Below, piece by piece: positions 2,237 through 33,885 of a DNA stretch of 33,930 bases (the stretch's first letter is position 1; each line of letters starts with the position of its first letter). The DNA is from Jimgerdemannia flammicorona. Lineage: Eukaryota. Position numbers and translations under genes: made by a program. The notes under the pieces are model-generated. The model did no database searches and was not told the DNA's origin. It worked only from the letters and a program-made list of their open reading frames with translations. Location of the stretch: contig RBNJ01000292.1 in NCBI GenBank assembly GCA_003990765.1, forward strand, positions 1 through 33,930, read 5' to 3'.

Positions 2237-2322
2237 GGTACATTTTTCTCCAGTAACATTCAGGTTACACAACCCTTTGGCAACACTTTCAACATAGTTT
2301 CTGGAGAAAAGCTACTAGTATC

Positions 2323-4352: not shown

Positions 4353-4381
4353 GGATTGAATGAGAACAACCATATTTTACT

Positions 4382-7300
4382 ATGAACAGTACAACCAATA
4401 TTTTTTCTTTGAACGTGAATGGACTGAGGGGCGCAGTTCAACATAGGAACATTTTTATTTGATTGAAGGGATTGGAGGCCGATCTCTTCCTCTTGCAGGA
4501 TATCAGGTGCGAGGATGATGCTAATAGGATGGAATGGACTAAGGAATGGGGTGGTATGGTGACTTGGAACAGTAAGGTCGGTATTCTGGTTCAGAAAGGC
4601 AGAGGGGAGATAAAGGATGTGAGGAGCTGGGGGGAAAGATTGGTCTGGGGTGAGTGGATCCATGCGGGGTGGGAGTCAGTCACTGTTGGCTCCTGTTACT
4701 GCCCTGCTGTGCAGAGGGAGCATGTGGATTGGGTGAACAGGCTCCTGGAGAGTGGGATCCTTGCTGAAGCTGGGTTGGATATGCTTGGAGGAGATTTCAA
4801 TATGGTTTGGGATGTACAGCTGGATAGAACTGATAGAGGATGGGGTGCGGAGAGCAGGAGTAGGGGGTTGGCAACATGGGTGGAGGTTGAAAGGCTTGGA
4901 GCACTGGTGGATGCTGGCAGGGAGTACTGGGGGGACAGGAGGATATACATGCATTGGGCTGGAGGTCTGGGGACAAGAATTGACTGGATTCTGACAGCCA
5001 ACTGTTGGGGCCGTGATGTTTGGAAGATGATAGAGGTAGAATGGTGTCCATGGTCAGATCACTGGGGCCTCTTGGGACAGGGGTGCTTTGGGGGAAGTAG
5101 AGATGGGCCTGGACATTGGTGCCTAAATTCCTCCTTGTTGAATGATGAGGCCCAGTGGGAGGAGTGGGCAAATGACATTCAGCTGAAGGTAGTGAATTGG
5201 CAGCAGGAAGGGGCCACGATTGGGATTCAGTGGATGAGGTTGAAAGAGATGGCCAGGATGTATTGGAGCGAGGCTGGCAGAGTGGCTGGGAAGCAGCGAA
5301 GGCAGAAAGTGCATTGGGCTTCTACTAGATTGGCTAGGCTCCTGGAGGAGTGGGCAAGAATGGTGGCAGTAGAGGGAGAAGAGGAGTGGAGAATAATGAG
5401 GGTGAAGATAGAGGTTGGAGAACTGCAACAGGTGCTGCGGGAAGAGGAAGAGTCAAGGGTGCAAGGCCTGATGGCACAGCTTTGTTGGCAGGGGCTGGAG
5501 GAAGGGGAGAGGCCTTCTAAGTTTCTCACAAGGACACTTCGAGCGAGAAGGGTGCAGCAGTGGTGGGAAGGGGTACTTGACTCAGATGATGTACTAGTGC
5601 ATGGTGTACAGGACATTCTTGGAATGCTGAAGGCACAATGGAGTAGATTGTGGAGTGAGGAGGAGGGTGGGGCAGATGCTATGGCCATTGATCAAACATT
5701 AGAGGATTGGCACCCACCACATGCTGAGAGACTAGGTGACCTGGTGTTGCCTGTAAAGGAGGTCGAGATCCACCAGGTTCTTGCTGCGACAGCCTCGGGT
5801 ATGGCGCCTGGGGAGGATGGCCTCCCCTGGGACTTCTGGAAGTGAATAGTTGGAGTCCCAGGTATATTGGAGGAGTTGACAGCACTGTGTGACTCTATAT
5901 TGCAGTCAGGGAGATGGGTGGGGGAGCAAGACCTTGGGCTGGTGATGCTGCTTTATAAGAACAAGAGAAGGTGAGAGGATTGGAAGAACTGGCAGCCGAT
6001 AATGTTGCTAGATATGGACAGGAAGTTGGTGACTAAGGTGGTAGTCGCAAGGCTACAGAAGGTAGCCCAGCAAATTGTGGGTGTTGAGCAGAGGGGCTTC
6101 ATAGGGTGTCGGCTTATTAGAGATGGTACAGCCTGGGTACATGGAGTTATTGAAGGTGCTCGAGCCTGTGGACTAGATGGGCATCTTGTCTTCTTGGATC
6201 AGGAGAAGGCTTATGACTGGGTGCGGCGAGTCTGGCTGGCAAAAGTATTAGATAGAATTGGAGTTCCAGACCCATTTCAGTTGGCAATGGTCAGCCTACT
6301 GGAAAGGAGTAGGGCTGTGCTCGTGTGCAATGGGCATCAAGGGGTGGCTTTCCCTCTGGGTAGGGGAGTGCCCCAGGGGGACCCACTGTCCCCCATTTTA
6401 TATGCTCTTTCCTTGGAACCTCTAATGGACAGGATTTGACAGAAGATTGTGGGGCTCTCTATCTATGGTGTTGGCTGGAAGGTTGGAGCCTTTGCGGACG
6501 ATATGGTGGTTGGTTTGGGAGTGACTGCGGATGTCGAGGAGCTCCGGAAGACTGTAGAGTGGTATGAGGAGAACTCTGGAGCGAAGCTGAATTGGCACAA
6601 GTGCGAAACAATGGTGCTGGGCAATGGCTTGGTGGGTGGAGAGGTTATTGGAACAATTGTCCCCACCGAAGAGGCAGTGTGGTACTTGGGCATCTATTTA
6701 TCGGTCTATGGGTCTGTTTTGCCCAGGCTGTGGTGAGAGCAGCGGATTGGAATTTGGGAGGAGGACTTGTGGGGTTGGGGGGGTAGACACTTCTCTCTGG
6801 CTGGAAGGGTCTCAATTCTGAATGTATATTGGTTGCCAAAGCTGTGGTATTTAGCCTATCATCTGGACTTCCCAGCCTGGGTAGTAAAGAGATTGGTGAA
6901 GGTGGCCAAGGGATGGATTTGGGCTGGCAGACAGAGTCAGATTGACTGGGAGACTTTGTTCCTACCGGTGGCAAGGGGTGGTCTTGGGCTGGTGGACTTT
7001 CCCAAAAGACTACACTGCTTGAGGGCTTGGTGGCTGAGGAGGGTGGTGGAGCTGCATGGAGGGGGCTGGGTTCCCCTGTTGCAGAAGATATGGGAGAGGC
7101 AGACATCGCCTAGAGGCTTGACTGGTGATCTTCTTTCATTAGTTGGGCTTCAGAACACTGTGCAACTGAGATATAAAGGCTTCTAGTGGGGGATAGCCAA
7201 GGGGGCACACCACATTGGTATTCACTGGCAAGGGGATGAGGGGGAGCGGGCTTGGGACTTAGCGATGTGGAGATGGGATAGCATTCTTCTGGGAGGCATG

Positions 7301-8038
7301 CCTTTACTGGAGTTCAACATTAGTAATAGCATCGAATGCCAAAGGGGTCCAGGCCAGGATCTGTGGCCTAGTGGTTGGCAAGAAGTCGGAATTGGTGAGG
7401 AGTGAGACTGGCATAGAGTTTGGACCTGGAGTGCCACAGTGAAAAATTGGATGCTGCTGAAGTACTGGATAGTCTGGTGGCGTGTGCTGAGGAGGAATGT
7501 GATGCTTAACTTTCACTTGGGACACCTTGTTGTAGGGGGCTGCTTTGACTGCGAGGAGTGCCATAATGTTGGGCAGGAAGGGGGATTGGTACAGATGCCA
7601 GAACATTGGCTAGGGGAGTGTGAGATGTTGGGAGACTTTTGGCAGACCATTAGTGACCACTTGGGGGTAAGGCGTAGGGGGGATGATGTACGGGGGAGGT
7701 GGGAGGACCTGAGGGATTGATTGATAGGAGGGGTAGGGGAAGAGTGGATTACTCTAGGCTGGGCATTGGCTATTTGGGTTGGGCTGGCCAGATACTGGCT
7801 ATTTGTATTTGAGGGGGAGAAGCAACAGAGCTTGGGGAGCTGGTTGGCAAGATGGCAGTACCTTATGGAGGATACCTTGATAGGCTGGTGGCTTGGTTGG
7901 GGGCTGCAGGGGGGTCGGAGGTGCTGCTTGGTGGTGAAAATCTGTGGCCAGAGTGGTGAGAGGGTGGGAGTTGTTGGTGAGAGGGTGGTCTTTATACATG
8001 ATAAGGTAGGGTGGGGCCCCCCAATGGAGATCGGATAG
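4382..8038 (+). pseudogene. LINE ORF2: AP endonuclease, reverse transcriptase and C-terminal Cys/His domain
   Basis: SLNVNGL, GGDFN, RID and SDH (APE); FLDQEKAYD, GVPQGDPLSP, AFADD and YLG (RT); CFDC...EHWLGEC. All ORF pieces share one frame and are broken only by stop codons. Confidence 0.95.
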
Positions 8039-8233
8039 TGGGTGGTGATATTGTATACTTATTCATAGACTGGTAATAAAGATGGAGTCCAAGGGACTAT
8101 AAAAAAAAAAATGGCTGGTCTGTATATACAATCCAGCGAAAGAGCTGATTTTGAAATTCTGCCAAAGAGTATGGCTAAATATTTTTGATTAAATGACATT
8201 GTTGGTACAGAAAAAAAAAAAAAAAAAAAAAAA

Positions 8234-8250
8234 AAGGAATGAGTGAAGAT
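8234..8250 (+). repeat. right target-site duplication of the LINE
   Basis: Identical to 2220-2236. Confidence 0.95.
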
Positions 8251-11200
8251 CCAAACACATTCTACACAAGAATCTAATACTAGATAATCCTTGTAGATTA
8301 TGCTGATATTATCTGAGACCAAGTAGCTGAAGCAACCTTCATGAAAGGAGTCTACCCAGAGATAACTATGGCCATCTGCTCATTACCAGTGATTCTGGAT
8401 CTGCCACAGAAGGTCACCTATGCTCAGCAATACTGGATAGCCAGACATCCACAAGACCATACAATGGAGAGGATCACAGGAGTCAGAATTAAAGCACCTA
8501 AGGCAACCAGTGTAATCTCTACCACAATGATCAATCAAAACACACCTTAGCCCAAAGCTACAAAGTAGCAAAAGAACAGTAACTCTTTGGAGAAACTTAC
8601 CAAGAGGTTTGCAGAAATGACTACCCACCTGGGAGATGTAGTAAAAGAGATCAGAGGAAGAGACTGCCACTTTGTTTAGAAGTTTGCTGCCACCTCAGAT
8701 AAGAAGAAAGATATCTGCTACACCTGTGGAGAAGAAGGCCACTACTCCTATAAATATATGAGCAAAACCAAGTACAAGGCCCAGCCAAGTAATGCCACTA
8801 GAAACAAGGAGCAGGCCAATATAATTATCTTCGAAGAAATTGCAGATTCTGACAAAGAAGAATGGGAGGCCTATCCTGCCCAGACCACTAAGAAGGATGT
8901 TTACAAAAAGCCCTACAAGAGACTGCTGGAAAGACCCAAGAAGAACCCAGTAGAAAAGCAGATGGAAACTGCCACAGAAAGTCAAGCCAAAGAGATGGAC
9001 CAAGATATGGAGCTGGAGCAAGCAGTTCAAGATATTATTCAAGGAACCACTCCAGCCAGTGAAGGAGAAAAAGAAAAGAAACTTTATAAGACCAAGACTT
9101 TCAAGTATGATATCTTCAAGGATCTTAGCCAACAAAAGGTCAATGCAACTTTTGGTCAGCTCACAGAAATCCCAACATTCAGACAGCAAATGAGGTTTGG
9201 ACTCACTGAAACAACTAAGGAGCAAGGATGGAAGATAACTGAGGCCAATAATGTTCAAGAGGACTCAGGAGAAGAAAGTGAAGATAATCACAAAACCTCT
9301 GCCTATGCAATATGCCAGATTGAGGATAGAATCTTTGAAGCTATCATTGATACTGGAGCAGAAGGATGTCTTCTCAGCAAGAAGGCAGCAGACCACCTAG
9401 GTTGGGAGGTTGAAGAAGTAATCAAGTTGGTGTTTGTCACAGCAGATGGCACAAGAGCCACCCCTCTGGGAAGGATCTGAGATGTCTCCATCAATATTGG
9501 AGGAGCAACCATTCCAGTAGATGTAATCATAACCAATGCCACAAACTATGACATCCTCATCAGCAATTAATAGCTTTACAAAGCTAGGGCAGTAATTGAC
9601 CTCAATGCTCAGAAGATGCAAATAATCTATCAGAGACAGAAGATATGAATTCCCATCAATGTCAACAAAAGAGTCTTGCCTGATATGGAGAAAAAAGAGA
9701 ACAAGCAAGAGGAAGCTTATATGGTAACTATTCTGAAGAAGAAAGTAGAATGGATGAGTGAAGAAGAATAGTGCAAGAAGATCACAGAAGGCTATGCACT
9801 ACAAGGAGTCTGTCCTCACAGGATCAAGATATACTATATGCAGCATATCAATGATTGCTATCAGTGCACCATCAGAATCAAAAAGATCCACCAGGAAAGA
9901 AGACAGAAAGCTCTCAAAAAACAGGTCAGAGAAGAGAAGGAGGAGGAAGATAATGAACCACCAGCTCTTCTGGAGGACAGTGACAATGAAGAAATCAAGG
10001 TCAAGATTCGAAGGACCCACCCTGATGCAGTCCTGCCAGAATACCAGTCAGAAAATATAGCTGGAATAGATATCACCACAGTAGAAGAAGCCATACTGGA
10101 ACTCCAGACAACCACCCTACTCACAACTGGACTAGAGATAACTATTCCAAAGGATCATGTTGGGATCCTCAAGACAAGAAGCAGCCTAGCCAGAAGCAAA
10201 ATTACTATTGAAGGAGGAGTCATCAATTCTGACTATACTGGAGAAATCCTGTTCATTATCAGGAATCACAATTCTACAATTTCATTCCCAGTCAAGAAGA
10301 AGGACTGATTGGCACAGATGCTGATCTTTCTAATTCTACAACCAAGGATCATAGAAGTCAAGAATTTGGAGAAAATGAAAAGAGAAAAGAAAGGATTTAG
10401 ATCTATAGGAAGAGGAGTATTCACCAGTACCAAGATCACCAAACTGGAGTATAAGAAGGAAGAAACCACAAACAAGCACAGCTACACCATTGGAAATGAA
10501 TTCCCACTCAAGGAAGAACTCAAGAAAATACTCCATGAATTCGAGGATATCCTTACTACAGATTTCAAGGATATCAAAGGAAAGACTCCACACTACTATC
10601 ATGAGGTAGATACTAGAGACACCAAACCAATTTACCAGAAGGCAAGACCTGTCCTGCCAGTCTACCAAGAATAGCTCAGAGAAGAAATCAAGCAGATGGA
10701 AGAAGCTGGTATTATCAAAGAAGCCAGTAGTCCCTGGTCTTCACCAGTTGTACTAGCCCTGAAAAAAGGAAGTAAGTCTGGAGAATTTGCCCCAAGACTC
10801 TGTATTAACTACAGAAAGCTCAATGTGGTTACCAAGAAGAATCGCCAACAACTGCCCCTCATCAGCGACATCCTTATAATACTAGGAGATGAAGCACACT
10901 ACTACAGCACCTTAGACTTATACTCAGGATTCCACAAAATTGGACTCACAGAAATGGCAAGTAAAAAGTCAGCCTTCATCACCTCTGATGGAACCTATAT
11001 CTACCTGTGAATGCCATTTGGGATGTGCAATACACCAGCAAGCTTCCAGCAAATGATGAACAAAATCTTCTGCTATGACATGGGAAGATGGATGATAGTT
11101 TATGTTGATGATGTAATTATCTACAGCAAGATACTTGAGGAATATCTGCAGCACATATGGCAGATAATAAAGAGACTAAGACAACATGGCCTTTACATCA

Positions 11201-11312
11201 AACCCAAGAAGTACAAGTTTGCAGAAATTGAGATCTCCTACCTTGGCTATGTTATCAATCAAGATGGAACACATATGGACTCCCTTAAGATATAAGTAGT
11301 AGTGGTATATCC
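8251..11312 (+). pseudogene. element A gag-pol remainder: capsid, CCHC knuckle, aspartic protease, Zn motif, dUTPase, RT (no RNase H or integrase)
   Basis: CYTCGEEGH (~8715), AIIDTGA (~9340), PWSSPVV, LDLYSGFH, MPFG, YVDD and YLGY. ORF pieces at 8341, 8758, 9838, 10309, 10696 and 11011 share one frame. Confidence 0.93.
9994..10410 (+). pseudogene. dut: trimeric-type dUTPase domain in element A polyprotein
   Basis: Five motifs in order: AGID, RSSLA, GGVINSDYTGE, LAQML and REKKGFRSIG. Confidence 0.93.
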
Positions 11313-11675
11313 AAGGCCTATTAGAACTGAACTGAGTTTCAGAAATACTTCAAACTGAGACAACTACTGAATTCACAGCCAGAGATGGGAAAAGAAGACT
11401 GGATTAGAGAGTGCTAGCTTTTCCATACTTAGATCATAATTACCAAATGAATCAACAAGTTGTTCAAAGATGATAAACCAGCCTTAGCCCACTTTTGAGG
11501 AGTAGTCCCAGGAGATTTCGGACATATCAAAAGACATCATTGGGAGAATATAATGACACAAATTGCACAGTACAAGGAGATACAAATCATAGAAGCATGA
11601 GAGTTTGAGTAAATAGGATGTTTCAGGGATGAATTACCTATTCAGGAAGAAGTTGTGACAGTTGATCTGAATTAG
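11313..11675 (+). pseudogene. element A post-integrase ORF3, 5'-truncated, unknown product
   Basis: Colinear, indel-free translation matches B 16517-16880; ends TAG TAA inside the 3' LTR. Confidence 0.65.
11644..11653 (+). promoter_or_regulatory. polypurine tract of element A
   Basis: AGGAAGAAGT abuts the 3' LTR; B has AGGAGGAAGA at 16539-16548 (-). Confidence 0.75.
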
Positions 11676-17041: not shown

Positions 17042-20000
17042 GATACTTCTTGAGTCAGTTTCAGTGGATAGTAGTGGAGATGATTGTGCCTGAGAGTTTT
17101 CATACCCAAAAGGTGGTTCCTTTTATATCTTGCACAAGGTAAGGTCCTTCCCACTTGGGCTCCAGTTTTCATGACCATGAGACTTCTACCATGTTCTGAT
17201 ACACTAGGACTTTGTCTCCTATCTTAATAATCTCCAGGGCTTGTGGGTTTTTTTCCACATTCTTCCATTGTAATGCCTGTGCCTTCATTATATAATCCTC
17301 AGCCTTCTTTCTGATTTGGTGTAGTCTCTGTATTTCTCCATCCACATGTCTCCATATAGCATCTTCATTAGACAATAGGATTTCTCAAGAACTTTCTTCT
17401 CCAAACAGCATCTCTCGAGGGGTAAAGTGGGTACTTTGTGATCTGATATCCCAGAGAGCAGATAATGCTATTGGCAGATAGTGATCCCAGTTTTCATAGT
17501 TATCATAGATCTTGGCAATAACATTCTTGAGGGTCTTCTTGGTCCTTTCTGCTTGTCCATTTCCTTGGGGATAATAGGCTGTGGTCCAAATATACTGGAT
17601 CTTGTACTTCTTGTAGAGAATCTCAAAGAACTGGTTTATGAATTCTGTTCCTTTATCTATAGTTACTTGCATTGGAGTCTTGAACCAGCAGATGATTTCT
17701 TTGTGGAAGAAATCAGTGATTGACTGTGCATTGGCTTCCTTGAGGGGTCCTGCTTCTACCCATTTTGTAAAAAGGTCTATGATAACAATAATATATTGGT
17801 TACCAGTCAGGGTCAAGAGTAGAGGGCCAATTACATCCATTGCTATGTGGGCAAATGGTACTGGTTCTATATGTGCTGATCCTGGGGCTTGGTTTTATTG
17901 GTCTTGTTTCTGTTTCTGGCATTTGTCACAGGTTTCTGATATCTTTCTCTATTCCTGGCCACCATATCATTCTTCTTGCCTTTTCATATATATTCATTCC
18001 TCCTAGATGGCCAAGTTTATGTACTGATTTCATTGTTTGCTCCTTCTTGTGTTCTGGTATGACTAGTAGTTTTCCTTTCTTCAGTATTTGTCTGTCAGTT
18101 TTGAATTGTTTCCATGTTCTGTTGATAATCATTTGCATCCATTCTTCCAGATATTGGGGCATCTTTCACTGTCCCAGATATGTGATAATTCCATAGTAGA
18201 GCTCCTTATTCATAATTGATTTGTTGGTTGGAGATATTTCAAGGTATCCATGAGAGAGCATCTACATTAGAATTTGTTCTTCCAGAGCAGTGTACAATGG
18301 TTACATCATAGACTTATAGCTTCATTATCCATCTGGTGTAGATTCCTTTGAGTTGTTTGGTTATCAGTAGCCAGGTGAGAGCTGAGTGGTCTGTCTGGAT
18401 GGTGAAGTATCTTTCAGCCAGATAGTAGTGGAACTTTTCCACAGCCCAGATAACTGCAAGGCATTCCAACTTGTAGGATTCATATTCTTTTTCAGCTCCT
18501 TGAGTTCCATGGCTAAGGTATATAATAATGTACTCTTTTTTGTCTTTCTTTTGAGCTAGGACTGCTCCTAGTCTCTGTGTACTTACGTCTATCTACAGAA
18601 TGAATTCTTGAGTCCAATTGGGTCATCTAAGGATAGGTGCCTGAGTTAGTCTGATCTTGAGTTCATCAAATGCTTTTTGTTGTCTGTCAGTCCACTGGAA
18701 CTTAGTATTCTTCTTATTGAGTTCATAGATTGGGCCTGTGATGTTAGAGAATCCTCTAATAAATCTGCAATAGTAGAAGGCAAGTACCATGAAGGCTTGA
18801 GCTTCTGTAACAGTAGTGGGCCTTGGGTATGCTGCTACCACTTATATCTTGAGTGGGTCTGTATATATTCCATCTCGATTGATAATATGGCCAAGGTAGG
18901 AGATCTTGATTTCTGCAAACTTGCACTTCTTGAGTTTGATGTAAAGGCCATATTGTCTTAGTCTCTCTATTATCTACTATATATGCTGCAGATGTTCCTC
19001 AGGTGTCTTGCTGTAGATAATTACATCATCGATATAGACCATCATCTATCTTCCCATATCATAGTAGAAGATTTTGTTCATCATTCACTGAAAGCTTGCT
19101 GGTGTATTGCACATCCTGAATGGCATTCATAGGTAGATGTAGGTTCCATCTAGGGTGATGAAGGCTGACTTTTCACTTACCATCTCTGTGAGTCCAATTT
19201 GGTGGAATCCCAAGTATAAGTCCAAGGTGCTGTAGTACTGTACTTCGTCTCCCAGTATTATAAGGATGTCACTGATGAGGGGCAGTGGTTGGCGATCCTT
19301 CTTGGTAACTGCATTGAGCTTTCTGTAGTCAACACAGAGTTTTGGGGCGAATTCTCTAGGTTTGCTTCCTTTTTTTAGGGCTAGTACAACTGGTGAAGAC
19401 CAGGGGCTGCTGGCTTCTTTAATAATACCAGCTTCTTCCATCTGCTTGATTTCTTCTCTGAGCCATTCTCAGTAGGCTGGTGGGACAGGTCTTGCCTTCT
19501 GGTAAATTGGTTCGGTGTCTCCAGTATCTACCTCATGATAGTAGTGTGGAGTCTTTCTCTTGATATCCTTGAAATCTGTGGCAAGGATATCCTCGAATTC
19601 GTGGAGTATTTTCTTGAGTTCCTCCTTGAGTGGGAATTCATTTCCAATGGTGTAACTGTGCTTGTTTGTGATTTCCTCCTTCTTATACTCCAGTTCAGTG
19701 ATCTTGATACTGGTGAATACTCCTCTTCCTATGGATCCGAACCCTTTCTTTTCTCTTTTTGTTTCCTCCAAATTCTTAACTTCTATGATCCTTGGTTGTG
19801 GGATTGGAAAGATCAACATCTGTACCAATCAGTCCTTCTTTTTGACCAGGAATGGAATTGTAGGATTGTGATTCCTAACAATGAGCAGGATTTCTCTAGT
19901 ATAGTCAGAATCGATGACTCCTCCTTCAATCGTAATTTTGCTTCTGGCCAGGCTAATTCTTGTCTTGAGGATCCTGACATGATCCTTTGGGATAGTCATC

Positions 20001-22195
20001 TCCAGTCCAGTTGCAAGTAGGGTAGTTATTTGGGGTTCTAGTATAGCTTCTTCTACTGTGGCAATGTCCATTCCAGCTGTATTTTCCGACTTGTATTCTG
20101 GCAAGACTGCATCAGAGTGGGTCCTTCAGATCTTGACCTTAATTTCTTCTTCATCATTGCTATCCTCCAGGAGGGCAGGTGGTTCATTATCTTCCTTCTT
20201 CTTTTTTTCTCTGATCTGTTTTTTGAGAGCTTTCTGTCTTCTTTCCTGGTGGATTTTCTTGATTCTGATGGTACACTGATAGCAATCATTGACATGCTCC
20301 ATACAGTATATCTTGATCCTGTGAGGACAGACTCCTTGTGGTGTATAGTCTTCTGTGATCTTCTTGTACCATTCTTCTTCACTCATTCATCCTACTTTCC
20401 TCTTCAGAATAGTTACCATATAAGCTTCCTCCTGCTCGCTCTCTTCTTCCTCTATGTCAGGCAAGACTTCTTTGTTGACATTGATGGGAATTCATATCCT
20501 CTGTCCTTGGTAGGTGATTTGTATCTTCTGGGCATTGAGATTGATTACTGCCCTGGCTTTATAAAGCCATTGATTGCTGATGAGGATGTCATAGTTGGTG
20601 GCATTGGTTACAATCATGTCTACTGGGATGGTTGCTCCTCCAATCTTGATGAGAACATCTCAGATCTTTCCCAGAGGGGTGGCTCTTGTGCCATCTGCTA
20701 TGACAAACACCAACTTGGTTGCTTCTTCAACCTCCCAACCTAGGCAGTCTGCTGTCTTCTTGCTGAAAAGACATTCTTCTGCTTCAGTATTGATGATGGC
20801 TTCAAAGACTCTATCTTCGATTTGGCATATTACATAGGCAGAGGTTTTGCGATTGTCTTCACTTTCTTCTCCTGAGTTCTCTTGAATATTATTGGCCTTG
20901 GTTATCTTCCATCCTTACTCCTTGGTTGTTTTGGCAAGTCCAAACCTCATTTGTTGTCTGAATATTGGGATTTCTGTGAGCTGACCAAAGGTTGCATAGA
21001 TCTTTTGTTGGCTAAGGTCCTTAAAGATATTGTACTTAAAAGTCTTGGTCTTGTGAAGTTTCTTTTCTTTTTCTCCTTCACTGGCTGGAGTAGTTCCTCA
21101 GATAATATCTTGAACTGCTTACTCCAGCTCTATATCTTGGTCCATCTCTTCAGCTTGGCTTTTGGTGGCTGTTTCCATCTACTTTTCTACTGGGTTCTTC
21201 TTGGGTCTTTCTGGTGATCTCTTGTAGGGTTCCTTGTGAACATCCTTCTTGGTAGTCTGAGCAGGATAGACCTCCTATTCTTCTTCATTAGAATCTCCAA
21301 TTTCCTCGAAGGTAATTATATTGGCCTGCTCCTTGTTTTGTATAGTATTGCTTAGTTGAGCCTTGTACTTAGTTTCACTCATGCATTCATAGGAGTAGTG
21401 GCCTTCTTCTCCGCAAGTATAGCAGGTGCCTTTCTTCTTATCTGAGGTGGCAGCAAACTTCTGGACAGGGTGGCAGTCTCTTCCTCTGATCTCCTTTACT
21501 ACATCCCCCAAGTGAGCAGTCATTTCTATGAATCTCTTGGTAAGTTCCTCCAAAGGGTCACTGTTCTTTTGCTGCTCTGTAGCTTTAGACTGAGGTGTGT
21601 TTCAATTGATCATTATGGTGGGGATCACACTGGTTGACTTAGGTGCCTTGATTCTGACTCCTGTAACTCTCTCCATTATATAGTCTTGTGAGTATCTGGC
21701 TATCCAGTATTACTGAGCATAGGTGACCTTCTGTGGTAGATCCAGATTCACTGGTGATGAGTGGATGGCCATAGCTATTTCTGGGTGGACTCCTTTTATA
21801 AAGGTTGCTTTGGCTACTTGATCTCAGATAGCAGCAGCATAATCTGCAAGAATTATCTGATATCGAATTCTGATATAAAATGTGTTTGGATCCTCACTTA
21901 TTTCTTATCATGTTGTGTTGAGCTGATCCTTTAGGACTTGCTTGATCTCATCTGTATAATATATATTTTGGAGCCAGGTCTTCTGTACTGTCAGTATAGT
22001 ATTGGTATCATTTTCTGCATGAGTTGTGGCTATGAATGCTGCTCTGACAGGACCTCATAGGCTGAAGGGCATGAGGGCTACTTGCTGTATTGCTGTCAGA
22101 GTCCTTACAGTGGTATACTGCTTGAAATCATCAATGAAGGTGATGATTGATTCATCTGAGGTATATTCATAGAATACTGGTAGTCTCATATCCAT
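17022..22195 (-). pseudogene. element B gag-pol polyprotein (gag, CCHC, PR, Zn motif, dUTPase, RT, RNase H, integrase with GPY/F; no chromodomain seen)
   Basis: CYTCGEEGHYSYEC; PWSSPVV; FQWTDRQQKAFDELK; HKLGHLGG; MDVIGP, DKGTEF and TAYYPQGNGQAER; KLEPKWEGPY. One frame from 22195 to ~18620, with frameshifts later. Confidence 0.95.
19727..20143 (-). pseudogene. dut: dUTPase domain in element B polyprotein
   Basis: AGMD, RISLA, GGVIDSDYTRE, LVQML and REKKGFGSIG. Confidence 0.93.
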
Positions 22196-23407: not shown

Positions 23408-26400
23408 TATAAGAGGGTTACTTTATTAGAATACTGTTATATAGTTCTGAAAGAGTTTTCTAGATATTCTGGATATTCTAGAAGACTGTTTTCTTTAGAT
23501 CAAAATCAATTTCATATAGAGTACATCCTCTATACTTATTGATTTCAAGAATAGATTAATGTCTCAACCAAAGTCCTTTTTTGGACTAGTTCTGGATGTT
23601 TAGGATTTTCTATATTTTAGAAAGTTCAAAAAACTAAGACTAGCTTAGTTGAATTGGTATATTGTTGTAGATAATACCTAATTAGAAAATTTTAAGATCT
23701 GATTAAAGTGAGACCTAATAGAGTATAGATTTACTTAAGAGTGGTTTGTGGGTTATTAAATAGATTTATTTACTATTTATGATATTGCTATACTAGAAGT
23801 AGTATATGAAGAGATATTTATATAGAGAAGTATTCTTAAGTTGTTCTTATCTGTTTAAGTCTGTTTATGTCTATTTAAGTCTAAGTTTCTAAGATCTGGG
23901 GAAATAGATATTTATACTAATGAGAGACTATCTGGACTATACTAAATGTAGATATAGTACTTAGTACTTTGATAAGTCAGAATATAGTTATATAGTATAA
24001 GTTGTAAACTAACATATTAAGAGATTGTCTAACTACTGAGTCAGTATATAGTCATATAGTATAAGGCTAATATAACTATACTAATAACTGCTAAGCTATC
24101 TACATATTTAGATACTATCTAGGTATTCTTCAATAAGGTTACTATTAATAACATTATCTCTGATAAAGTAGTTATCTAGGAAGAGTAGTTCTTGGATTAT
24201 ATCTCTCTGTTTATTTATTATAAGCACACAACCTCCAAGCCACCAAAATTGCATGGTATCCTCAGAACTAATTCAGAAACCACATGCGAGACTACAAAAC
24301 AAGAGATCATCTGGTTACACGAAATATGCCAGCAAGCATGAGAACCCACCACCAAGATACAAAAATACTAGAAGAAGTACTACAACCATAAGACGGACTC
24401 TGAACTGTTATAACTAGTTTGGTGTACTGTACTATTACAAAAGAAACTGAAAGTACCAAACTCAAATCAAGATAAGAAGAACCCTATCTCACCCATCAAA
24501 AGGTTCACAAACTGCACTTATCAACCCAAGACTAAGATATACCATGACTATACAAGACCTCATTACTTAGCAGAAGCAAAATGCATTTGAACAACTCCAT
24601 TCGCTTTATCTATGTCACCTCCGTTGGAGAGTGATGGATACTTTATCTGAACTCAAGAAAGCCAACAATGTTGAAACCAATCTCAAGCCATCCATGTGAC
24701 AGATATTACTACTAGAAATTGCCTTGAATTACAGAAAATATCATTTCCGAGAGGTTTGAACCCCCAGCCGTGACATTAGGAGTCCTCACCCTAGATGAGA
24801 ATGGCCAGTCCTCACAAATGCGCCAGCAGACCAAAAAAAAAAGAGAACCAAGATCTGTTATCCTTGTACAACCACCGCCACTAAGGACAGCCTTAATCTT
24901 GCAAGAGATAGAAGTGATGATACCTTGAAACTGATGAGGTCAGAAGTCAGAAAACTGCTCAGACTTTGCCAGTGATGATGTCATCAATAGTGATATCATC
25001 AAGGACTAACCAGACAGTGCCTAAATCTATAAATAGTCTAGCAGTCATAGCATAGTTAGATTAGCCTTGTACGATATAACTGTGAACTGACTCAGCAATC
25101 AGATGATCTCTTGACATATCAGATCACACTTATACTACGTGACTGCATTCCGACTCAGCAAGACACTTAGTGCTACATCCATATTCAGCATAGTCCAGAT
25201 AGCCCCTCACTAGTATAAATACCCCCTCCCCCAGACCTCAGAATCTCAGACTTGAACAATCCGAACACAACTCTTGAGCACTTCCCCACAATATTCCTTC
25301 ACACAAATACTCCTAGTATAGCAATATCATGAATAGCGAATAAACCTATTTAATAATCCACAAATCACTCTTAAGTAAATCCACTCCCTGTTAGGTCTTA
25401 CTCCTAACTCCATCACGAAATTTCCTAATTGGGTATTGTCTGCAGCGATACGCCAATTCAACTAAGCTGGTCTTAGTATCTTGAACTTCCTGAAATACAG
25501 AAAATCCCGAATATCCAGAACTAGTCCGAAAAAGGGACTTTGGTTGAGATGTCAACCCGATCTTGAAATCAATAAGTGTAGAGGATATACTCCATACAAA
25601 ATTGATCTTGACCATAAGAAAACGGTCTTCCAGAATATCTAGAACTTCCAGAAAACCTTCTAGAACTACGTAATGGCTACCCTAAAAAGTAACCCTCTTA
25701 CATTTATATAATAATAGATTGAAACTATATTATCATTCTATAGAATAGCATCATCTGTCTTATATACTAGATAGGGTGTTAGTGAGTAGAGAAGGGATAC
25801 ATTATCTTTACTTTCATCAGATTTGCTATTAGTATATCTTTGATATATTATAGTACTATATATTATAAGATTATAGTATACTGGTAGCTATGGTTTATTT
25901 TATTCATAGTTAAGAGATGGGGTTGTTGGTTCAATCTCAAGAGTTGTCTAGAGATATAGGTTATATTCTTTGATCTCTTCATTATAGTTGAAGTGATTAG
26001 TATAAATATAGATTAGTATTCATGCCAGTGGTCATTATCCTAATAGGTCTCATAGGTAATTATAAACTATTATAAGTTCATCTGCTTTGTTATTATCAAA
26101 CTAGATTATATTATAGATATTCTTTATTATATATCTAACTTGGGGTATTTGTAGAATATAATCATTAGAGTATAGAAAGAGTCTATCTGTAGTTTGGGCA
26201 TACTTGATATACTTGTGATTGAGTTCTTATACCATATTATCAATTTGTCTATAGGACAGAATAACAACTATTTCAATAGTAGTAACTCAGAGATAGGGAA
26301 TAAAGATACTATACTCATAGAAGAGTTCTTAGAGTTTACAGGTGATGAGTTTCTAGTATTGAGACATTTCAGTAATATCTGTATTATAGTGATAGCTAAC

Positions 26401-26497
26401 TATATCTTCCAGGAGATAGCTGATCTAATAGTAGCTTAAGATTTATCCAATTCAGTAGGCCTCACTAAGTATGTTCAGAATATTCTATTGAGCTTCT

Positions 26498-26537
<40 letters not shown>

Positions 26538-26935
26538 GTTCTATCAAGCTTTTATAAAATAAAGAAGTGCTAGACTATAGATATTCATGAGAAGCAGGAG
26601 AGCTGTGGCTCAGTTGATAATGACATTTCAAATATCAGTATAGATATAGTTATAGATTTCAGTAGTTATGTTTGGTATATGTTTGAGAGTTATAGTTGTT
26701 TATTTAGTTTATTGTAGTTCTCTATTTTAATATACCTATATATTTAGTATATATGTTTTTAGTTCTGATTAGTAAGATTTTATTTTTGTAAATCTTATAT
26801 TTTGTGACTTCAAGTTAACTTAGCTTCATAATCTGTGACTTTAGTTTGACTCAGCTTTATAATCTTACATATGGTTTCTAAATTTATTCTGAGGATAACA
26901 GGTGATTTCAGTAGCTTAGAGGTTGTATACTTATA
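23408..26935 (-). repeat. 3' LTR of element D (~2.04 kb after removing the nested solo LTR)
   Basis: The minus-strand start TATAAGTATACAACCTCTAAGC at 26935 follows the PPT AGAAGAGAAGAGT and matches the solo-LTR start; 23408-23915 matches 33369-33885. Confidence 0.8.
24219..25702 (+). mobile_element. solo LTR (1484 bp) of a family related to D, inserted inverted in D's 3' LTR
   Basis: TATAAG (decayed TGTAAG)...CTTACA termini; 5-bp TSD TTTAT at 24214-24218 and 25703-25707; TATAAATA near 25214 and AATAAA near 25339. Confidence 0.88.
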
Positions 26936-27535: not shown

Positions 27536-30500
27536 TAATGATAACAGGTACTAGTGGTTTTGTAATTTGATTTGGGAATAGCTTATCATTATTTTTGTTA
27601 TATTGCTTGAGATATTGAACATGAAGACAGTGTAAATCTTGATGGTATCTGATAATATCAATTTGTAGAAAGTTGGAAAAACTTATATAATAACTTCAAA
27701 TGGTCTAATAAATTTGCAATTCAGCTTTGTAGAGAGTCTGTACTTGAGGTTGTCAACTCAGTATCCTTGAATATCTAGTAGAACTTTTTCTCTAATATCA
27801 AAGTTTCTTCTCAGTAGTACTGGTTGATATACTATGATTATTGCTTCTGAGCTTACAATAAATTCTTAATTGTAATCTGGCTTAAGTTGTATATTTGGAA
27901 CAGAAATTCTTCAATAGCTTCTACAGTAAAGAGTTTATCAGTAGTTTAGATAAGTATTAGAAGAGTGTGTAGATTTTGTCCTATATTGGCAAAGAATAGA
28001 ATTATTCCAAGAGAGGCTTATTTGCTATTATTATAGATAAACTCAACTGCAGTAAGATATTTATATCAATTATCTTATCTATAGAAAACATAGCTCTTTA
28101 GTATTTGCTCTAAAGTTTGATTTATCCTTTTAGTTTAGTTATTAGTTTTGGGGTAAAAGACTATAAATAGACATTAATTACTAACAATGATCTTGGAAAG
28201 ATCATAATAGTAGAAGATATTATCAAATAAGAGTATAGTGATTTCTGATACTATTGTAGTTGTAGCAGTAGATATGAAGTGGACTTATTTGCCAAAATAG
28301 TCTATAAAGATAATAATTGCATCTTTTCTATTCTTGGTTCAGAGTAGTTGTATAATAAAGTCTATAGAGATTTATTCCCAATTAGCAGATAGTAGAATAG
28401 GGTGAAGTAGGTCAGATTTTACTAATATTGAGAACTTATTGCATTAGTAGATATTATAAGAAGTGATGTGGGTCTTTAGCTAATCTGCTATATATGATCA
28501 ATAGAAGTTTTAGAAAATAACTTTATAATATTTGTCAAATTCTAAATATCTGACTATAGAGATATCATGACATTCAAATAAGATAGTTCTTTGGAGATCT
28601 AAATTATTAGGAATATATAATCTGTTCTTATTGTAGATATTATTGTCCTTTAGTTAGTATTAATGATACTGAGAGTATTTGTCAATATCATTATTACTTA
28701 GGATTTCTCAGGATTCTTAAGCTTCTTTATTATCAGTGTATGCTGTGATAATTTATTCTATATTTGAGTTGGTAACTAAGGTGAGAGTTTGTATAACTTC
28801 TTTGATTAGTGGTCTGAAAATTGTATCAGCAATAATATTTTTCTTACTGAGGCAGTATTGGATTTCATAGTCAAAATTGGTGAAGACTTTCATCTATCTG
28901 GCTTGTTTTCAAGAAAGGGTAGTCTGGATCTTAATACTGACTAATGATTTGTGATCTGTCAAAATAGTGAAGTATACTCCTTTAAAATATGGTTGCTATT
29001 TAATCAGAGTGTCTATGATGGCTAATATTTCCTTCTTATGGGTTGTATAGTTGATTTTGGTATCATTGAACTTATAAGAATGATAGGCCACAGAGTGTTC
29101 TTCTTGTATAAGTACTGTCCCAAGAGCTAGATCTGAGACATTAGTATAATAGGGCAGAATTTACCACTTGAAGTACTGGAGTAATTATCAAGATATCTTT
29201 TAGTACTTAAAAGACTGTATCTTATTTGAGTCTATAATTTATGAGATTGTTGAAGTCTTTTTCTTAGTTTGTAGTTCAGAGCTGTCCTTCTTTTTTTTAC
29301 AATACTTAGTCATTTGGATAAGGATAGTAGTAATCTTGGTGAAGTTTGTAACAAATCATCAGTAATAGTTTACTAGTCCCAAGAATGATTGGAGGTCTTT
29401 CAGCTTCTTAGATCTAGATCATTCCTTGATTATGGAGATTTTACTAGAGTTTACTTTAATTCTATTGAGAGTGATAATATGTCCAAAGAATTGAATTTTC
29501 TTTAGAAGAAATTTATACTTACTGAGTTTTATAAAGAGTTAATTTTCTTAAAACTTCAGTAGTACTAGTCCAAGATGTTTGAGATATTCCTCCAGGGTTT
29601 TACTGAAGACTAAAATATCATCAATATAGATAATAATATATTTGTCTAAATATGGATATAGAATAGTATTCATTAGTATCTAGAAGGTTGTAGAAGTATT
29701 AGTTAAGCCAAAAAGCATAACTAAGAACTTGAAATATCTATAGTAAGTTTGGAAGATAGTTTTGTAAATATCTTCTTCTTTTATGGTAATTTTCCAGTAG
29801 CTATTTCATAATTCAAAAGAGCTCATAAACTGTGGGTTGGTAAGTCTATCAAATATTTTATTGATTTGGGGTAGTGAGCAATAGTTCTTAATAGTCTGTT
29901 CATTGAGGTCTTAGTAGTCAATATATATTTATAGATCTTCTCCTTTCTTGACAACAAAGAGGACTGGTATACTATATAGTGATATACTAGGTCTAATGAA
30001 TTCTTGTTTTAGGAGTTTATTAATTTTCTTCTTGAGTATATTAATTTTTTTAAGAGATATGTAGTAGATTGACTTGAAGGCTAGCCCAGTATCCGGGATA
30101 GTCTTGATAGTATAGTCAACTACTTATTTATATAGTAGACCTTTTAGAAGTTTCTTTGGAAATATATTTCAGAATTTCTGAAGTAAGAATCTAACATAGC
30201 TATCAACTTGAAAAAGTCTTCTTCAAGGTTCTTAGGTTCTTCTTTAGATAGATTCATATATAGAGATAGCAAAGAGAGGATATTTCTTAGCTAATTTCTT
30301 AAGTTGTAGTTTATAGATATGAGGTCTGGGTCACTAGAACTAAGTGAGTCTCTTTTGTCTTATAGTTTGAAATTGTGACATCCTTTCTTAATAGTCAGAA
30401 AATAATTTATTCAATCAATCATAGAGTTCTCTTATTTTAATCATGGAGTCCTAAGGATGATCTCATTGTTAGAAAGTAGTATAATTTGGAGTATAATACA

Positions 30501-30945
30501 TATATACTCAGTAGTCACTGCTTCAGAAGGATAGATTGTAGACTTCTTTGCTAATAACATGAGAGGTTCTATTAACTATAGTATATAACAGCTTAAGTCT
30601 ATTGTACTGGAGAGATCAGGACCTTGAGTCTATTGGCTATTTCTTCATTGATGAAGTTACCTAAGATACCACTGTCTATCATAATCTTGACAGATACTTG
30701 ATTAACAAAAACTTGGAGGATAAGCAGTTTGTCTGATCCAATAGTGGTAACTTCAGTTATAGGAGATTTCCTTCTATTGGTTCTCCTTTGGGCCAGTTCA
30801 TTGATATAAAAAAAGTAATTGTCAATTATTTGAGAAGAGTATATTTTAATATTATGGGGGTATTAGCCACTTGGTACAAATCCATCTCCAATTTTCTTAT
30901 AGAATTGTTCTTTCTTATTTGTAGTAGGTTATACTGAGGATTTTT

Positions 30946-31357
30946 TTAATAAGCCAAATCTTTATAATTCTCAAATAGTAGGCAGTAGTTCAGAAACTTC
31001 CTTAGCTGTCAGAGTTAACTCAATTTTCTCAAATAAGATCTGTGTGATACAAAAACCAATAGAGATCTTGAATGGTGTCTAGCTATAGTTTTGGATGAGG
31101 ACAATGATTTTATCTGTATAATTTTCATCAATGATTTCTCCTTCTACTGAGAGTTATTTTAATACTAGGCTGCTGTAACAGTATATTCTTCTAATATATC
31201 CTTCAGAAATTTGAATATTGATTCCCATATAGACTTGCTTAACTTCTTGATTAGAAACTATAGCTTTTTCAACTATATATAAATCATATTAAGCTGTTTT
31301 TTGGCTTTCTTTAGTTGGAGCTATAGCAGTTATTCTCAGCTTAACAAAGTCTAATAT
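30946..31357 (-). pseudogene. dut: dUTPase domain of element D, between the Gag zinc knuckle and protease (absent from the ORF track)
   Basis: LDFVKLRITAIAPTKESQKTA*YDLY...GINIQISEGYIRRIYCYSSLVLK*LSVEGEIIDENYTDKIIVLIQNYS*TPFKISIGFCITQILFEKI...TI*EL*RFGLL; all five motifs in order, no frameshift. Confidence 0.88.
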
Positions 31358-33368
31358 CTTAATAGTCAGATTGTTGAGGTGATGCAGAGTAGTAATAGTT
31401 ATTCATATTGCTATTTAAGGTTTTTAGTTGGGGCAGACACTAGCTATATGTCTTGTCTTTTAACAATAGAAGCATACTCTGCTTCTTCAGAGTTCATTTC
31501 TTTCTCCTTTGGTAAGTTTCTTGAAGATACTCAGCTGAGTGGGTTCAGGATTTCAGAGTATCTAAGAGATGAATGTGGAGAAAGCTTGGGATACTTTATA
31601 TTTGGATTCTTCTTTCTTAGTTCTTATTGTTGAATTGTTTTTAAGGTAAAATTGGTCTAGCTATCAGAATTCACTTGATCATAGTCTTGATTCTTGCTAA
31701 GTAGCATTGTTAGTGATCACAATCAGCTAGGTATCCTTGTTCTCAGATATTTCTTATGAGCTATTCTGGTAGCATATCAAATAAATGATCTGCTCTTATA
31801 CTATTTCATACTTCATCATTGGCAATATATTCTAGGCCAATAGTATTCAAGAGTAACTCAAGTTTTGTACAAAAGGTTTCAAATTCCTTCTTACTATATA
31901 TATATATATCAAATTTGAGATTGTGGAGTTTTACTTAAGATTTAGCAATCAAAGTTTTACTATGATATTGAGCAATTGTAAGTTATTTAAGTCCAGGGGC
32001 TATAGAGTGATCTCTATACTCAGAGATATTATTTGCTATATTTTAGGTAATAACTATATGTCAAATATCTTATATGAGAGGTTTTTTTAGAAAGGATTTA
32101 CCACTATTCTTCAGTAGATTCTTAGAAGAATATAATAACTCAACAGATATACATAGGCTATAGTAGTAGTAAAAAGTTGTTTGATAGTGTAGTCTTGATT
32201 ATTTATCAGAAAGTAGTTAGCCACTCATTTGTTGGTCTATTGGTTGGCTTTGAAATTGATATCAATTATACTAATGAAGCTTTGGACTTCTTGTATAGTA
32301 CTATTGAAGATAGGTAGGCTCAGACTTTTTGTTGATTGGATCTATTCAGCTAAGGTAGTAATGGTTGCTGTTATTATAGTTATCTGGGTAGTAAGATCTA
32401 AATTTGTTAGTTTGTCATATTTATTAGAGATAGTTAGACTACTGATAGTGGGGTTACTGGTACAACTTGAGATACTGATATAGTGTGTTATAGTGTTTTT
32501 TGAGTCTGTGTGAGTTGCTAGAGTAATTATTGTAGATCTGGTATAAAGGCTTGATAAATAACTATCTATTGCTCTATAGGTGTATTTTGTCCTAAGGGAG
32601 ATATATCTCCTATAATAGTATATTTGGAATTGAATTCAGTAAGATATACCTCCTTCTCTTTACTTTGATCTCTATATAGTTGAGTTTATTTAGTATTGAA
32701 GTAGATAGTATTAGTTATATATCTGATTTCAGATGAGCTTAATTCAAAAGCTGGTTCAGGTTCAACATTGGCTTCAGATTCAAATAACTGGGCCTGCTTT
32801 CAGTTCAGAATCAGATTATTAATAAAGGGTTACCCTGACTTCTTCCTTAAGAATATAGTGGACCTTGTAATTCTAAAAATAGTAATATAAGACAGTCTTG
32901 GTCTTAGTTTAGTAATAGTTAGTAGAGTTGAGCCACTTAACTATAGAGACTTGTGTTTTGTAAGAAATTAAGACTAGAAAGACAGCTACTAGTTGTCCTA
33001 AGTTACTCGAGTTTATAAAGCTAACAAAACTCTTATTGAGAAGAGTAAAGAAGACTTCTATAAAACCTTCTTCATTTTGACTTATGAAGTGTAGAGTAAG
33101 AAGTTCAGTTTATAGAGTTTTGTCTATCTGCTGATTTAATTGAAGTACTTTTTTTTGTAAATAAAGTCTGTCTCACTTATTACAGATATGGAGATCAAAT
33201 TGTCCTTGTACATTAGGTTCAATTTACTTCAGATTATCAGATAGTTTAAAATAAATTTCAGTTCAAAGATTAGGCTTTATACTAACTTGTAGAAATTTCT
33301 TATAAGGTTTATAGCAGAGTGAGAAAGTATTTTGAAGCAAAATTAGATTATAACTACTGCTATCAAGT

Positions 33369-33885
33369 TGTAAGAGAGTTACTTTATTAGAGTACTATTA
33401 TATAGTTCTAGAAGGGTTTTCTGGAAGTTCTGGATGTTCTGGATTTTCTGAAAGACTGTTTTCTTTAGGTTAAGATCAATTTTATATAGAGTATATCCTC
33501 TATATTTATTGATTTTAAGAATAAGTTGATATCTTAACAAAAGTTCTTTTTTAGACTAGTTCTGAATATTTAGGATTTTCTATATTTCAGAAAGTTTAAA
33601 AAACTAAGACTAGCTTAGTTAAATTGTCATATTGCTGCAGACAATCCCAATTAGGAAATTTCAGAATCTGGTTAAGAGTGGGACCTAATAGGGTGCAGAT
33701 TTACTTAAGAGTGATTTGTAAATTATTAAATAGATTTATTTATTATTTATAATATTGCTATACTAGGAGTAGTATGTAAAGAGATATTTGTATAGAAAAG
33801 TATTTTTGAGTTAATCTTGTCTGTTTGAGTCTGTTCATATCTGTTTGAGTCTGAGTTTCTAAGATCTGGAGAAGTAGGTATTTAT
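33369..33885 (-). repeat. 5' LTR of element D (U5, R and TATA part only)
   Basis: Matches 23408-23915; similarity stops abruptly within the TATA box. Confidence 0.85.

What the first reader, a model, noticed from the sequence alone, without database searches (positions are those of the whole stretch)
30946..31480. Chromovirus with a dUTPase fused directly after the Gag zinc knuckle
Seen: the CCHC knuckle, dUTPase and protease share one minus-strand frame, hidden from ORF callers by stop codons. Established: canonical chromoviruses lack dUTPase, and the gag-dUT-PR position is that of betaretroviruses (NC-dUTPase of MMTV and M-PMV). Inference: convergent capture of an encapsidated dUTPase that limits uracil in cDNA. 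The three stops just after the knuckle could be decay (CAA/CGA), or one could be a real gag stop with recoding.
Basis: partly seen in the sequence, partly recalled or inferred. Interest (0 to 1): 0.75.

Follow-up and report, generated by a model that had tools for sequence, protein, structure and literature searches.

The report
Fungal chromovirus with Gag-fused dUTPase
This is a dead copy of an abundant fungal jumping gene whose single long protein carries a dUTP-destroying enzyme right behind its RNA-binding zinc knuckle; the layout is real and was kept by selection, but dUTPase-carrying fungal elements of this kind are already described.

Summary
Observation confirmed. Knuckle (31474-31433), dUTPase (PF00692, E 3e-17) and protease DSG share one minus frame of a decayed Ty3/gypsy element in a fungal genome. 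A less decayed copy has a chromodomain (E 4e-17), and the RT groups with chromoviruses. The dUTPase belongs to the family: none of 30 loci found with gag alone leaves it out. The recoding idea fails: 27 of 113 scored copies have no stop across knuckle-dUTPase-protease, one reads 796 codons from Gag into RT, and the stop positions are mostly CGA in young copies. So Gag-Pol is one frame, unlike the frameshifted betaretroviral NC-dUTPase. The domain keeps all five motifs and shows purifying selection (9 synonymous : 5 non-synonymous shared transversions, p 2.5e-4). dUTPase in fungal chromoviruses, including at the start of Pol (PosPlaTy3-3), is published (PMC2864245). Extras: a second chromovirus lineage in the genome has the same order with a different dUTPase, and a non-chromoviral family in this window has a dUTPase after the protease and shares a small Cys/His module. 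The origin of the dUTPase is unresolved. This scan noted the same layout before on other pieces of this genome.

The parts
33369..33885 (-). 3' part of the 5' LTR (cut by the contig end)
   Evidence: 84% identical to 23410-23915; matches positions 1545-2042 of the 2042-bp LTR of the C1480 copy
31475..33205 (-). gag region, decayed (stops and frameshifts); start codon not determined; no Pfam hit for the N-terminal 425 aa
   Evidence: tblastn of L078 pieces; Pfam; 37% identity of the Gag C-terminal part to P0013/P0026
31433..31474 (-). CCHC zinc knuckle (nucleocapsid)
   Evidence: sequence; PF00098 on copy L049
31346..31432 (-). linker of about 28 codons holding the three decay stops (31426, 31417, 31405)
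   Evidence: codon tallies over copies
30946..31345 (-). trimeric-type dUTPase domain, decayed in this copy; RSS-type motif II and GGVID-type motif III in young copies
   Evidence: PF00692 E 3e-17 here, 7e-36 in L049; motif tallies; selection
30770..30915 (-). small Cys/His module (CxH...CxxC in young copies) between dUTPase and protease, shared with the second family in the window
   Evidence: alignment; score 122 against a shuffle maximum of 50 in 5000; no Pfam, Atlas or Foldseek hit
30400..30730 (-). aspartic protease (DSG at 30676-30668); copy-specific frameshift in the second half
28912..30279 (-). reverse transcriptase and RNase H region
   Evidence: PF00078 E 1.3e-16; tblastn
27880..28908 (-). 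integrase
   Evidence: tblastn of L078 pieces; PF00665 on L078
27374..27790 (-). SH3-like domain and chromodomain (chromodomain split by a frameshift in this copy)
   Evidence: PF24626 and PF00385 (E 3.9e-17) on L078; 70% identity to window 27514-27374; no direct Pfam hit on the window's own three frames
23410..26926 (-). 3' LTR (about 2 kb when whole) holding a decayed extra sense ORF (26819-24111); interrupted by an inverted, younger 5' fragment of the same family (24218-25702) and an A/T run (26500-26533)

Best explanation
The stretch is the gag-pol junction of a dead copy of a high-copy fungal chromovirus (Ty3/gypsy, Metaviridae), here called family D. In the replicating element one reading frame encoded Gag - CCHC knuckle - dUTPase - small Cys/His module - protease - RT - RNase H - integrase - chromodomain, with no stop or frameshift at the gag-dUTPase junction (shown). 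The dUTPase kept its five catalytic motifs under purifying selection like the neighbouring domains (shown). Most likely the polyprotein is packaged into the virus-like particle and cut by the element's protease, leaving an active trimeric dUTPase, perhaps still attached to the knuckle, that lowers dUTP at the site of reverse transcription and so keeps uracil out of the cDNA (inferred by analogy with retroviral dUTPases; activity, cleavage sites and trimer formation not tested). The stops in the window copy come from C-to-T decay after insertion, strongest at CpG and CpA (shown).
For: Domains and order. One frame: 27 of 113 scored copies have no stop over the 360-aa knuckle-dUTPase-protease stretch; L049 is open for 796 codons from Gag to RT; all six gag-pol pieces of L078 share a frame up to the chromodomain; no X XXY YYZ slippery site in L049 300-1300. 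Junction codons in 29 of 30 gag-selected loci (one had no motif match): CGA 26, 24 (+5 CGG), 29 and 25 at the four stop positions. Family-wide: 16 of 30 gag-selected loci run through the dUTPase and 14 stop at a contig end in it or just before it; none leaves the family sequence. Motifs over 34 copies: D of motif I 34/34, S of II 34/34, D and Y of III 34/34, Q of IV 34/34, F of V 34/34. Selection: transversions shared by 3 or more of 40 DNA-selected copies, dUTPase 9 synonymous: 5 non-synonymous, w 0.13, p 2.5e-4; protease 11:3, RT side 19:4. Decay: 184 of 238 differences between the window copy and L049 are C>T or G>A; CpG 37/56, CpA 80/171, CpC 43/120, CpT 24/159. Role of retroviral dUTPases: PMC4531489, passages.
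Against: In the 40 old copies, position 31405 is a stop in 35 (28 TGA, 7 TAA, 2 CAA), more one-sided than other CGA sites; it is overruled by the young copies, but the strand bias is unexplained. Motif IV lacks the usual acidic residue (GFCIAQ against GDRIAQ in most rows of the alignment), and the sister protein P0013 has VSS in place of RSS in motif II, so activity may be reduced in this lineage. The selection count rests on few sites, and the copies are not independent. No enzyme data. The host has its own intron-bearing dUTPase gene (L127), so the need for a second one is an inference.
Confidence: 0.75

Rival explanations
1. gag ends at a real stop after the knuckle (31405) and dUTPase-pol is made by readthrough or another kind of recoding.
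For: 35 of 40 old copies have a stop at 31405, with only 2 CAA; 11 of 30 protein-selected copies have TGA there.
Against: 17 of 30 and 25 of 29 (the two sets share four places) young copies have CGA there; 27 of 113 copies have no stop at all across the junction; no slippery heptamer.
Confidence: 0.02
2. The dUTPase fold is kept for a non-catalytic job, for example as a trimerising or nucleic-acid-binding partner of the knuckle during particle assembly, or as a decoy; catalysis is weak or secondary.
For: In a single frame every Gag carries the domain; motif IV is atypical; P0013 has lost the motif II Arg; the M-PMV NC-dUTPase is described in a cited title as of low catalytic efficiency (reference list of PMC4531489).
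Against: The catalytic and substrate-binding residues of motifs I, II, III and V vary in D only by C>T/G>A-type decay or rare singletons, which fits selection on catalysis.
Confidence: 0.18
3. The dUTPase is a passenger or a secondary insertion in this copy or a few copies.
For: Only 2 of 150 representative relatives and 1 of 120 listed RT relatives (the family's own P0012) carry a dUTPase, so it is rare among chromoviruses.
Against: No gag-selected locus lacks it; purifying selection; a sister family from another data set (P0013/P0026; Gag 37%, dUTPase 51%, protease 45% identical) has the same order.
Confidence: 0.02
4. On origin: the dUTPase and the adjoining Cys/His module came into family D from another retroelement of the same host lineage (such as the ancestor of non-chromoviral family B), not straight from a cellular gene.
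For: D and B share the module, the RSS motif II, the one-residue-shorter linker before motif III and GGVID, although their RTs are only 35% identical and B lies outside the chromovirus clade. D is 43% identical to the host-type dUTPase, less than to P0013 (51%).
Against: The dUTPase tree does not join D and B; its backbone is unresolved (16 of 30 inner branches open), and AU tests reject none of D+host, D+E/F or D+B (p 0.19, 0.20, 0.19). The same signature occurs in unrelated rows (P0008, P0021) and the short linker in the 2okd structure. The order of module and dUTPase is reversed between D and B, and P0013 lacks the module.
Confidence: 0.3

Closest known systems
PosPlaTy3-3 of Postia placenta and the other dUTPase-bearing fungal Ty3/gypsy elements (PosPlaTy3-4, -5; Phanerochaete chrysosporium elements; Tmt1 of Tuber melanosporum), PMC2864245 section 5
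   Same: Fungal Gypsy elements with a dUTPase (its supplement caption calls them CHD-containing); in PosPlaTy3-3 the domain is at the amino terminus of Pol, before the protease; the same role was proposed and several independent acquisitions suggested.
   Different: Here gag and pol are one frame, so the dUTPase follows the knuckle directly, and a Cys/His module follows it. Whether PosPlaTy3-3 has one or two frames could not be seen (Figure 3 and the .DOC supplements are not readable). No sequence comparison with PosPlaTy3-3 was possible.
Betaretroviral NC-dUTPase (MMTV p30, M-PMV), PMC4531489
   Same: dUTPase between the nucleocapsid knuckle and the protease.
   Different: Made there by a gag-pro ribosomal frameshift; here no frameshift. 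Retroviridae against Metaviridae. The best solved-structure matches are cellular and poxviral enzymes (E about 3e-27), lentiviral ones are at 2e-16 and 8e-14, and no entry that I recall as betaretroviral is among the best 60 of 72 (organism assignment of PDB codes is recalled).
Bdelloid rotifer Juno, Vesta and TelKA LTR retrotransposons, PMC5408684
   Same: Ty3/gypsy-like elements with a dUTPase; Juno has an extra Zn knuckle next to it; extra ORFs.
   Different: dUTPase lies between protease and RT; no chromodomain.
Unnamed environmental protein P0013/P0026 (ENA)
   Same: Homologous Gag, knuckle, dUTPase of the same short-linker GGVID type, protease and RT start in one frame.
   Different: About 340 extra residues between knuckle and dUTPase; no Cys/His module after the dUTPase; VSS in motif II.

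Membership tests
Ty3/gypsy LTR retrotransposon (Metaviridae) | Order PR-RT-RH-IN | tested here: met
Ty3/gypsy LTR retrotransposon (Metaviridae) | Two LTRs with TG...CA ends, polypurine tract, target-site duplication | tested here: met
   Family copy on C1480: 2042-bp LTRs, 94.9% identical, TG...CA, purine run before the 3' LTR, CTGAG on both flanks. In the window the 5' LTR is cut by the contig end.
Chromovirus | Chromodomain at the integrase C-terminus | tested here: met
   PF00385 E 3.9e-17 in L078; 70% identical, frameshifted remnant in the window
Chromovirus | RT groups with chromoviruses | tested here: met
   D is sister to chromodomain-bearing P0291/P0300 (99/92), inside a starred clade with Closterium, Chara and flowering-plant elements (59 rows, 172 columns, LG+G4). 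No named reference elements were in the tree.
Chromovirus | Assignment to a named clade such as Tcn1 | not tested
Trimeric dUTPase (PF00692) | Profile match over the cut-off and five conserved motifs | tested here: met
   63 bits in the window, 123 bits in L049, cut-off 22; motif tallies; motif II is RSS and motif IV lacks its acidic residue
Trimeric dUTPase (PF00692) | dUTP hydrolysis and homotrimer | not testable with these tools
   needs an enzyme assay
Betaretrovirus-type NC-dUTPase | dUTPase between nucleocapsid and protease | tested here: met
Betaretrovirus-type NC-dUTPase | Transframe product of a gag-pro frameshift | tested here: not met
   one open frame; no slippery heptamer
Betaretrovirus-type NC-dUTPase | Mature protein keeps NC attached to the dUTPase | not testable with these tools
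   cleavage sites unknown

The most novel reading that the evidence does not exclude
In this fungal lineage dUTPase is so useful to retrotransposons that at least three lineages carry it (two chromovirus lineages with different dUTPases at the same knuckle-proximal site, and a non-chromoviral one after the protease), and family D took its dUTPase together with an undescribed Zn-binding module from another retroelement. Because D has one reading frame, every Gag would bring a trimerising NC-dUTPase into the particle without any recoding. That would point to a host condition or defence based on high dUTP or uracil-DNA repair acting on retrotransposon cDNA in fungi.
Probability: 0.2. Interest if true: 0.6.

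Novelty: new member of a known kind. Interest (0 to 1): 0.3.

Why it matters
It adds a well-supported case of a fungal chromovirus with the dUTPase directly behind the nucleocapsid knuckle in a single frame, and shows that the domain was under purifying selection, which I did not see reported in the passages read on fungal elements. The role of dUTPase in retrotransposons is stated as unclear in PMC2864245; a genome with several abundant dUTPase-bearing families in two positions is a good place to test it. It is not a new kind of system and holds no recoding signal.

Tried and rejected
Recoding at 31405: looked plausible from old copies, rejected with young copies. Secondary insertion: the first copy sets (70 of 70 loci, 69 places, with all three domains) were chosen with queries that span the dUTPase and are biased, so the test was redone with a gag-only query. 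dN/dS: the first count used protein-selected copies and transitions and is biased low; it was redone with transversions and DNA-selected copies. dUTPase origin: tree unresolved and AU tests uninformative; L127 was left out of the tree because its translation holds introns, and the retrocopy L096 stood in for the host. P0026 was left out of the RT tree (match too short); L067, L100 and L112 had no RT long enough. A search for a diverged D-like family in the genome with the P0013 dUTPase gave top scores no better than those of family D copies (the new loci were not inspected). Structure: the single-sequence model of knuckle-to-protease is useless (pLDDT 29); the module model (pLDDT 64, helix-hairpin-helix) has no Foldseek match at E 0.001; the Atlas gave no usable hit for the module and only scores under 0.9 for P0013. 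Expression: no RNA holder listed. Contigs of two runs of one study cover the stretch without joints; they may not be independent, and no piece spans it. Literature searches; none gave a paper on a single-frame knuckle-dUTPase chromovirus, but the library lacks most subscription papers, including Novikova and Blinov 2008 and Riccioni 2008, seen only as citations. The .DOC supplements of PMC2864245 (element structures, dUTPase tree) could not be read and may bear on novelty.

Full report
1. Observation. The window is contig C292 of a 231-Mb assembly in 35,354 contigs. The host is most likely a fungus: five matches to Chitin_synth_1 over the cut-off (that this family marks fungi and oomycetes is my own knowledge), and an intron-bearing dUTPase gene. 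Read on the minus strand with X at stops, 31798-30569 gives in one frame a CX2CX4HX4C knuckle (31474-31433), a dUTPase and the protease DSG (30676-30668). Pfam finds PF00692 at E 3.1e-17, 63 bits against a cut-off of 22.

2. The element. A DNA search of the genome with 30700-31600 scored 40 of 1908 candidates, all covering at least 830 of the 901 bases; a protein search scored 113 of 9485. These are lower bounds, not copy numbers. Copy L078 shows the whole layout: six gag-pol pieces in one frame ending in an SH3-like domain and a chromodomain (PF00385, E 3.9e-17), then a 412-codon sense ORF without a Pfam hit above cut-off. In the window the chromodomain remnant is at 27514-27374. In an RT tree of 59 rows and 172 columns, family D is sister to two chromodomain-bearing environmental proteins (99/92) inside a starred clade with Closterium, Chara and flowering-plant elements. 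No named reference elements were in it, so the chromovirus clade is not assigned.

3. Decay or recoding? In 40 old copies position 31405 is a stop in 35 (28 TGA, 7 TAA; 2 CAA), more one-sided than other CGA-type sites, which at first looked like a real gag stop. Young copies settle it. 27 of 113 scored copies have no stop over the 360-residue knuckle-dUTPase-protease stretch (counted from the table). L049 is open for 796 codons from Gag into RT, with knuckle, dUTPase, protease and RT in order. At 31405, 17 of 30 protein-selected loci and 25 of 29 readable gag-selected loci (four places are in both sets) have CGA; the other three stop positions behave alike. L049 has no X XXY YYZ heptamer in 300-1300. 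The window copy differs from L049 at 238 sites over this region, 184 of them C>T or G>A, with 37 of 56 CpG, 80 of 171 CpA, 43 of 120 CpC and 24 of 159 CpT cytosines changed: RIP-like or methylation-driven decay (my reading). So gag and pol form one frame and there is no recoding here. Why that one CpG decays mostly on the top strand is unexplained.

4. Is the dUTPase part of the family, and was it working? With a gag-only query, all 30 loci run on in register past the knuckle: 16 through the dUTPase (one is the query's own place), 14 to a contig end inside it or just before it; none leaves the family sequence. Across 34 young copies the key residues of motifs I-V are invariant or vary mostly by C>T/G>A-type change; motif II is RSS, and motif IV lacks its usual acidic residue. 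Counting only transversions shared by three or more of the 40 DNA-selected copies, the dUTPase has 9 synonymous and 5 non-synonymous changes (w 0.13, p 2.5e-4), against 13:4 for gag, 11:3 for the protease and 19:4 for the RT side; the module has 2:1 (p 0.054). Counts are small and copies are related, but the domain was under purifying selection in the replicating lineage.

5. Relatives and origin. dUTPase is rare among close relatives: 2 of 150 representatives, both protease-dUTPase-RT, and 1 of 120 listed RT relatives, the family's own P0012. One environmental sister, P0013/P0026, has homologous Gag, knuckle, dUTPase and protease in the same order (37, 52, 51 and 45% identity). In the same genome a second lineage (E/F) has capsid-knuckle-dUTPase-protease-RT and a chromodomain-like end, but its dUTPase is of the RSG type and only 36-43% identical to D's, and its RT branches apart from D's. 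A third family (B; two copies in this window) has protease-module-dUTPase-RT, lies outside the chromovirus clade, and shares with D a module of about 50 residues with a CxH...CxxC pattern (15 invariant columns of 64 without gaps; score 122 against a shuffle mean of 22 and maximum of 50) and the RSS / short linker / GGVID signature. The host gene (L127) and its intronless copy (L096, 97-99% identical in exons) are 43% identical to D's domain. Best solved-structure matches are cellular and poxviral (E about 3e-27), with lentiviral enzymes lower (organisms of the PDB codes are recalled). The dUTPase tree leaves the backbone open, and AU tests reject none of D+host, D+E/F or D+B. Descent from betaretroviruses is unlikely, but the donor is unknown.

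6. Mechanism. Shown: one polyprotein frame with the dUTPase about 28 codons behind the knuckle; motifs and selection. Inferred: packaging with Gag, release by the element's protease, trimer formation, and removal of dUTP during reverse transcription, by analogy with retroviral dUTPases, whose loss raises mutation rates in non-dividing cells (PMC4531489, passages). I put this at 0.75, a mainly structural role at 0.18, and recoding or passenger status at 0.02 each. The enzyme would not protect against the cytosine decay seen in the copies, which does not come from dUTP incorporation (my reasoning).

7. Comparison with what is known. PMC2864245 (passages and section 5 read; figure and .DOC supplements not readable) reports dUTPase in Postia placenta Gypsy elements at the amino terminus of Pol (PosPlaTy3-3), at its carboxyl terminus (-4) and between PR and RT (-5), cites earlier cases in Phanerochaete and Tuber (seen only as citations), suggests independent acquisitions and calls the role unclear. 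PMC5408684 (passages) reports PR-dUTPase-RT in bdelloid elements. PMC4531489 (passages) describes the betaretroviral NC-dUTPase as a frameshift product. bioRxiv 10.1101/2023.09.13.557621 (one passage) notes enrichment of dUTPase, protease and zf-CCHC domains in Entomophthora muscae. The element is therefore a member of the chromoviruses and of the known group of dUTPase-bearing fungal elements. It resembles the betaretroviral NC-dUTPase in position but is not one (no frameshift). Five searches gave no paper on a single-frame knuckle-dUTPase chromovirus or on the module, within the library's limits. Earlier notes of this scan report the same layout and the shared module on other pieces of this genome; I had found both before reading them, and they are not independent support.

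8. Verdict. Real, correctly located and family-wide; decay explains the stops; a new member of a known kind. Interest 0.3. The boldest reading left open, transfer of a dUTPase-plus-module cassette between retrotransposon clades under a host pressure from dUTP, has probability about 0.2 and would merit 0.6.

Noticed in passing
window 8221-11323 (+; dUTPase 10027-10404) and 18814-21919 (-; dUTPase 20110-19721): A second, non-chromoviral Ty3/gypsy family (B), also abundant (144 scored of 10482 candidates), carries a dUTPase between protease and RT, preceded by the same Cys/His module that follows the dUTPase in family D.
   Followed up: partly
L097-L125 (except L116), L128, L130, L133; L178-L180: Another chromovirus lineage in the genome (E/F) has the same knuckle-dUTPase-protease order with an RSG-type dUTPase only 36-43% identical to D's and no Cys/His module.
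   Followed up: partly
window 26819-24111 (-); L078 7924-9162; L077 6040-7278: A 412-codon sense ORF with no Pfam hit above cut-off lies inside the 2-kb LTR of family D and is open in two copies.
   Followed up: partly
L071, L075, L079 (junction equals window about 30155 to about 27560): Three of the seven places fetched as long stretches share one internal deletion that keeps gag, dUTPase and protease, removes RT, RNase H and integrase, and joins in frame to the start of the chromodomain: a possible non-autonomous subfamily.
   Followed up: partly
L096 1492-2118 (-) and L127: An intronless copy of the host dUTPase gene (97-99% identical to the exons of L127) with changes in motif II: a recent processed retrocopy.
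   Followed up: partly
window 24218-25702 (+): A younger 5' fragment of family D (about 91% identical to young copies) is nested in inverted orientation in the 3' LTR of the older copy.
   Followed up: partly
window about 2240-8235: A GC-richer insertion (51-55%) ending in an A run inside a family B copy; an ORF at 4463-5845 has a weak Exo_endo_phos match (E 2e-4, under the cut-off): probably a LINE.
   Followed up: no
window 33205-32400 (-); L078 1423-2240: The gag frame runs for about 270 codons upstream of its first Met in L078, and no ATG was seen at its 5' end in the copies printed; the start of translation is unclear.
   Followed up: partly
window 31405: This CpG decays almost only on the top strand (TGA 28 : CAA 2 in old copies, 11 : 1 in protein-selected ones), unlike most other CGA sites.
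   Followed up: partly
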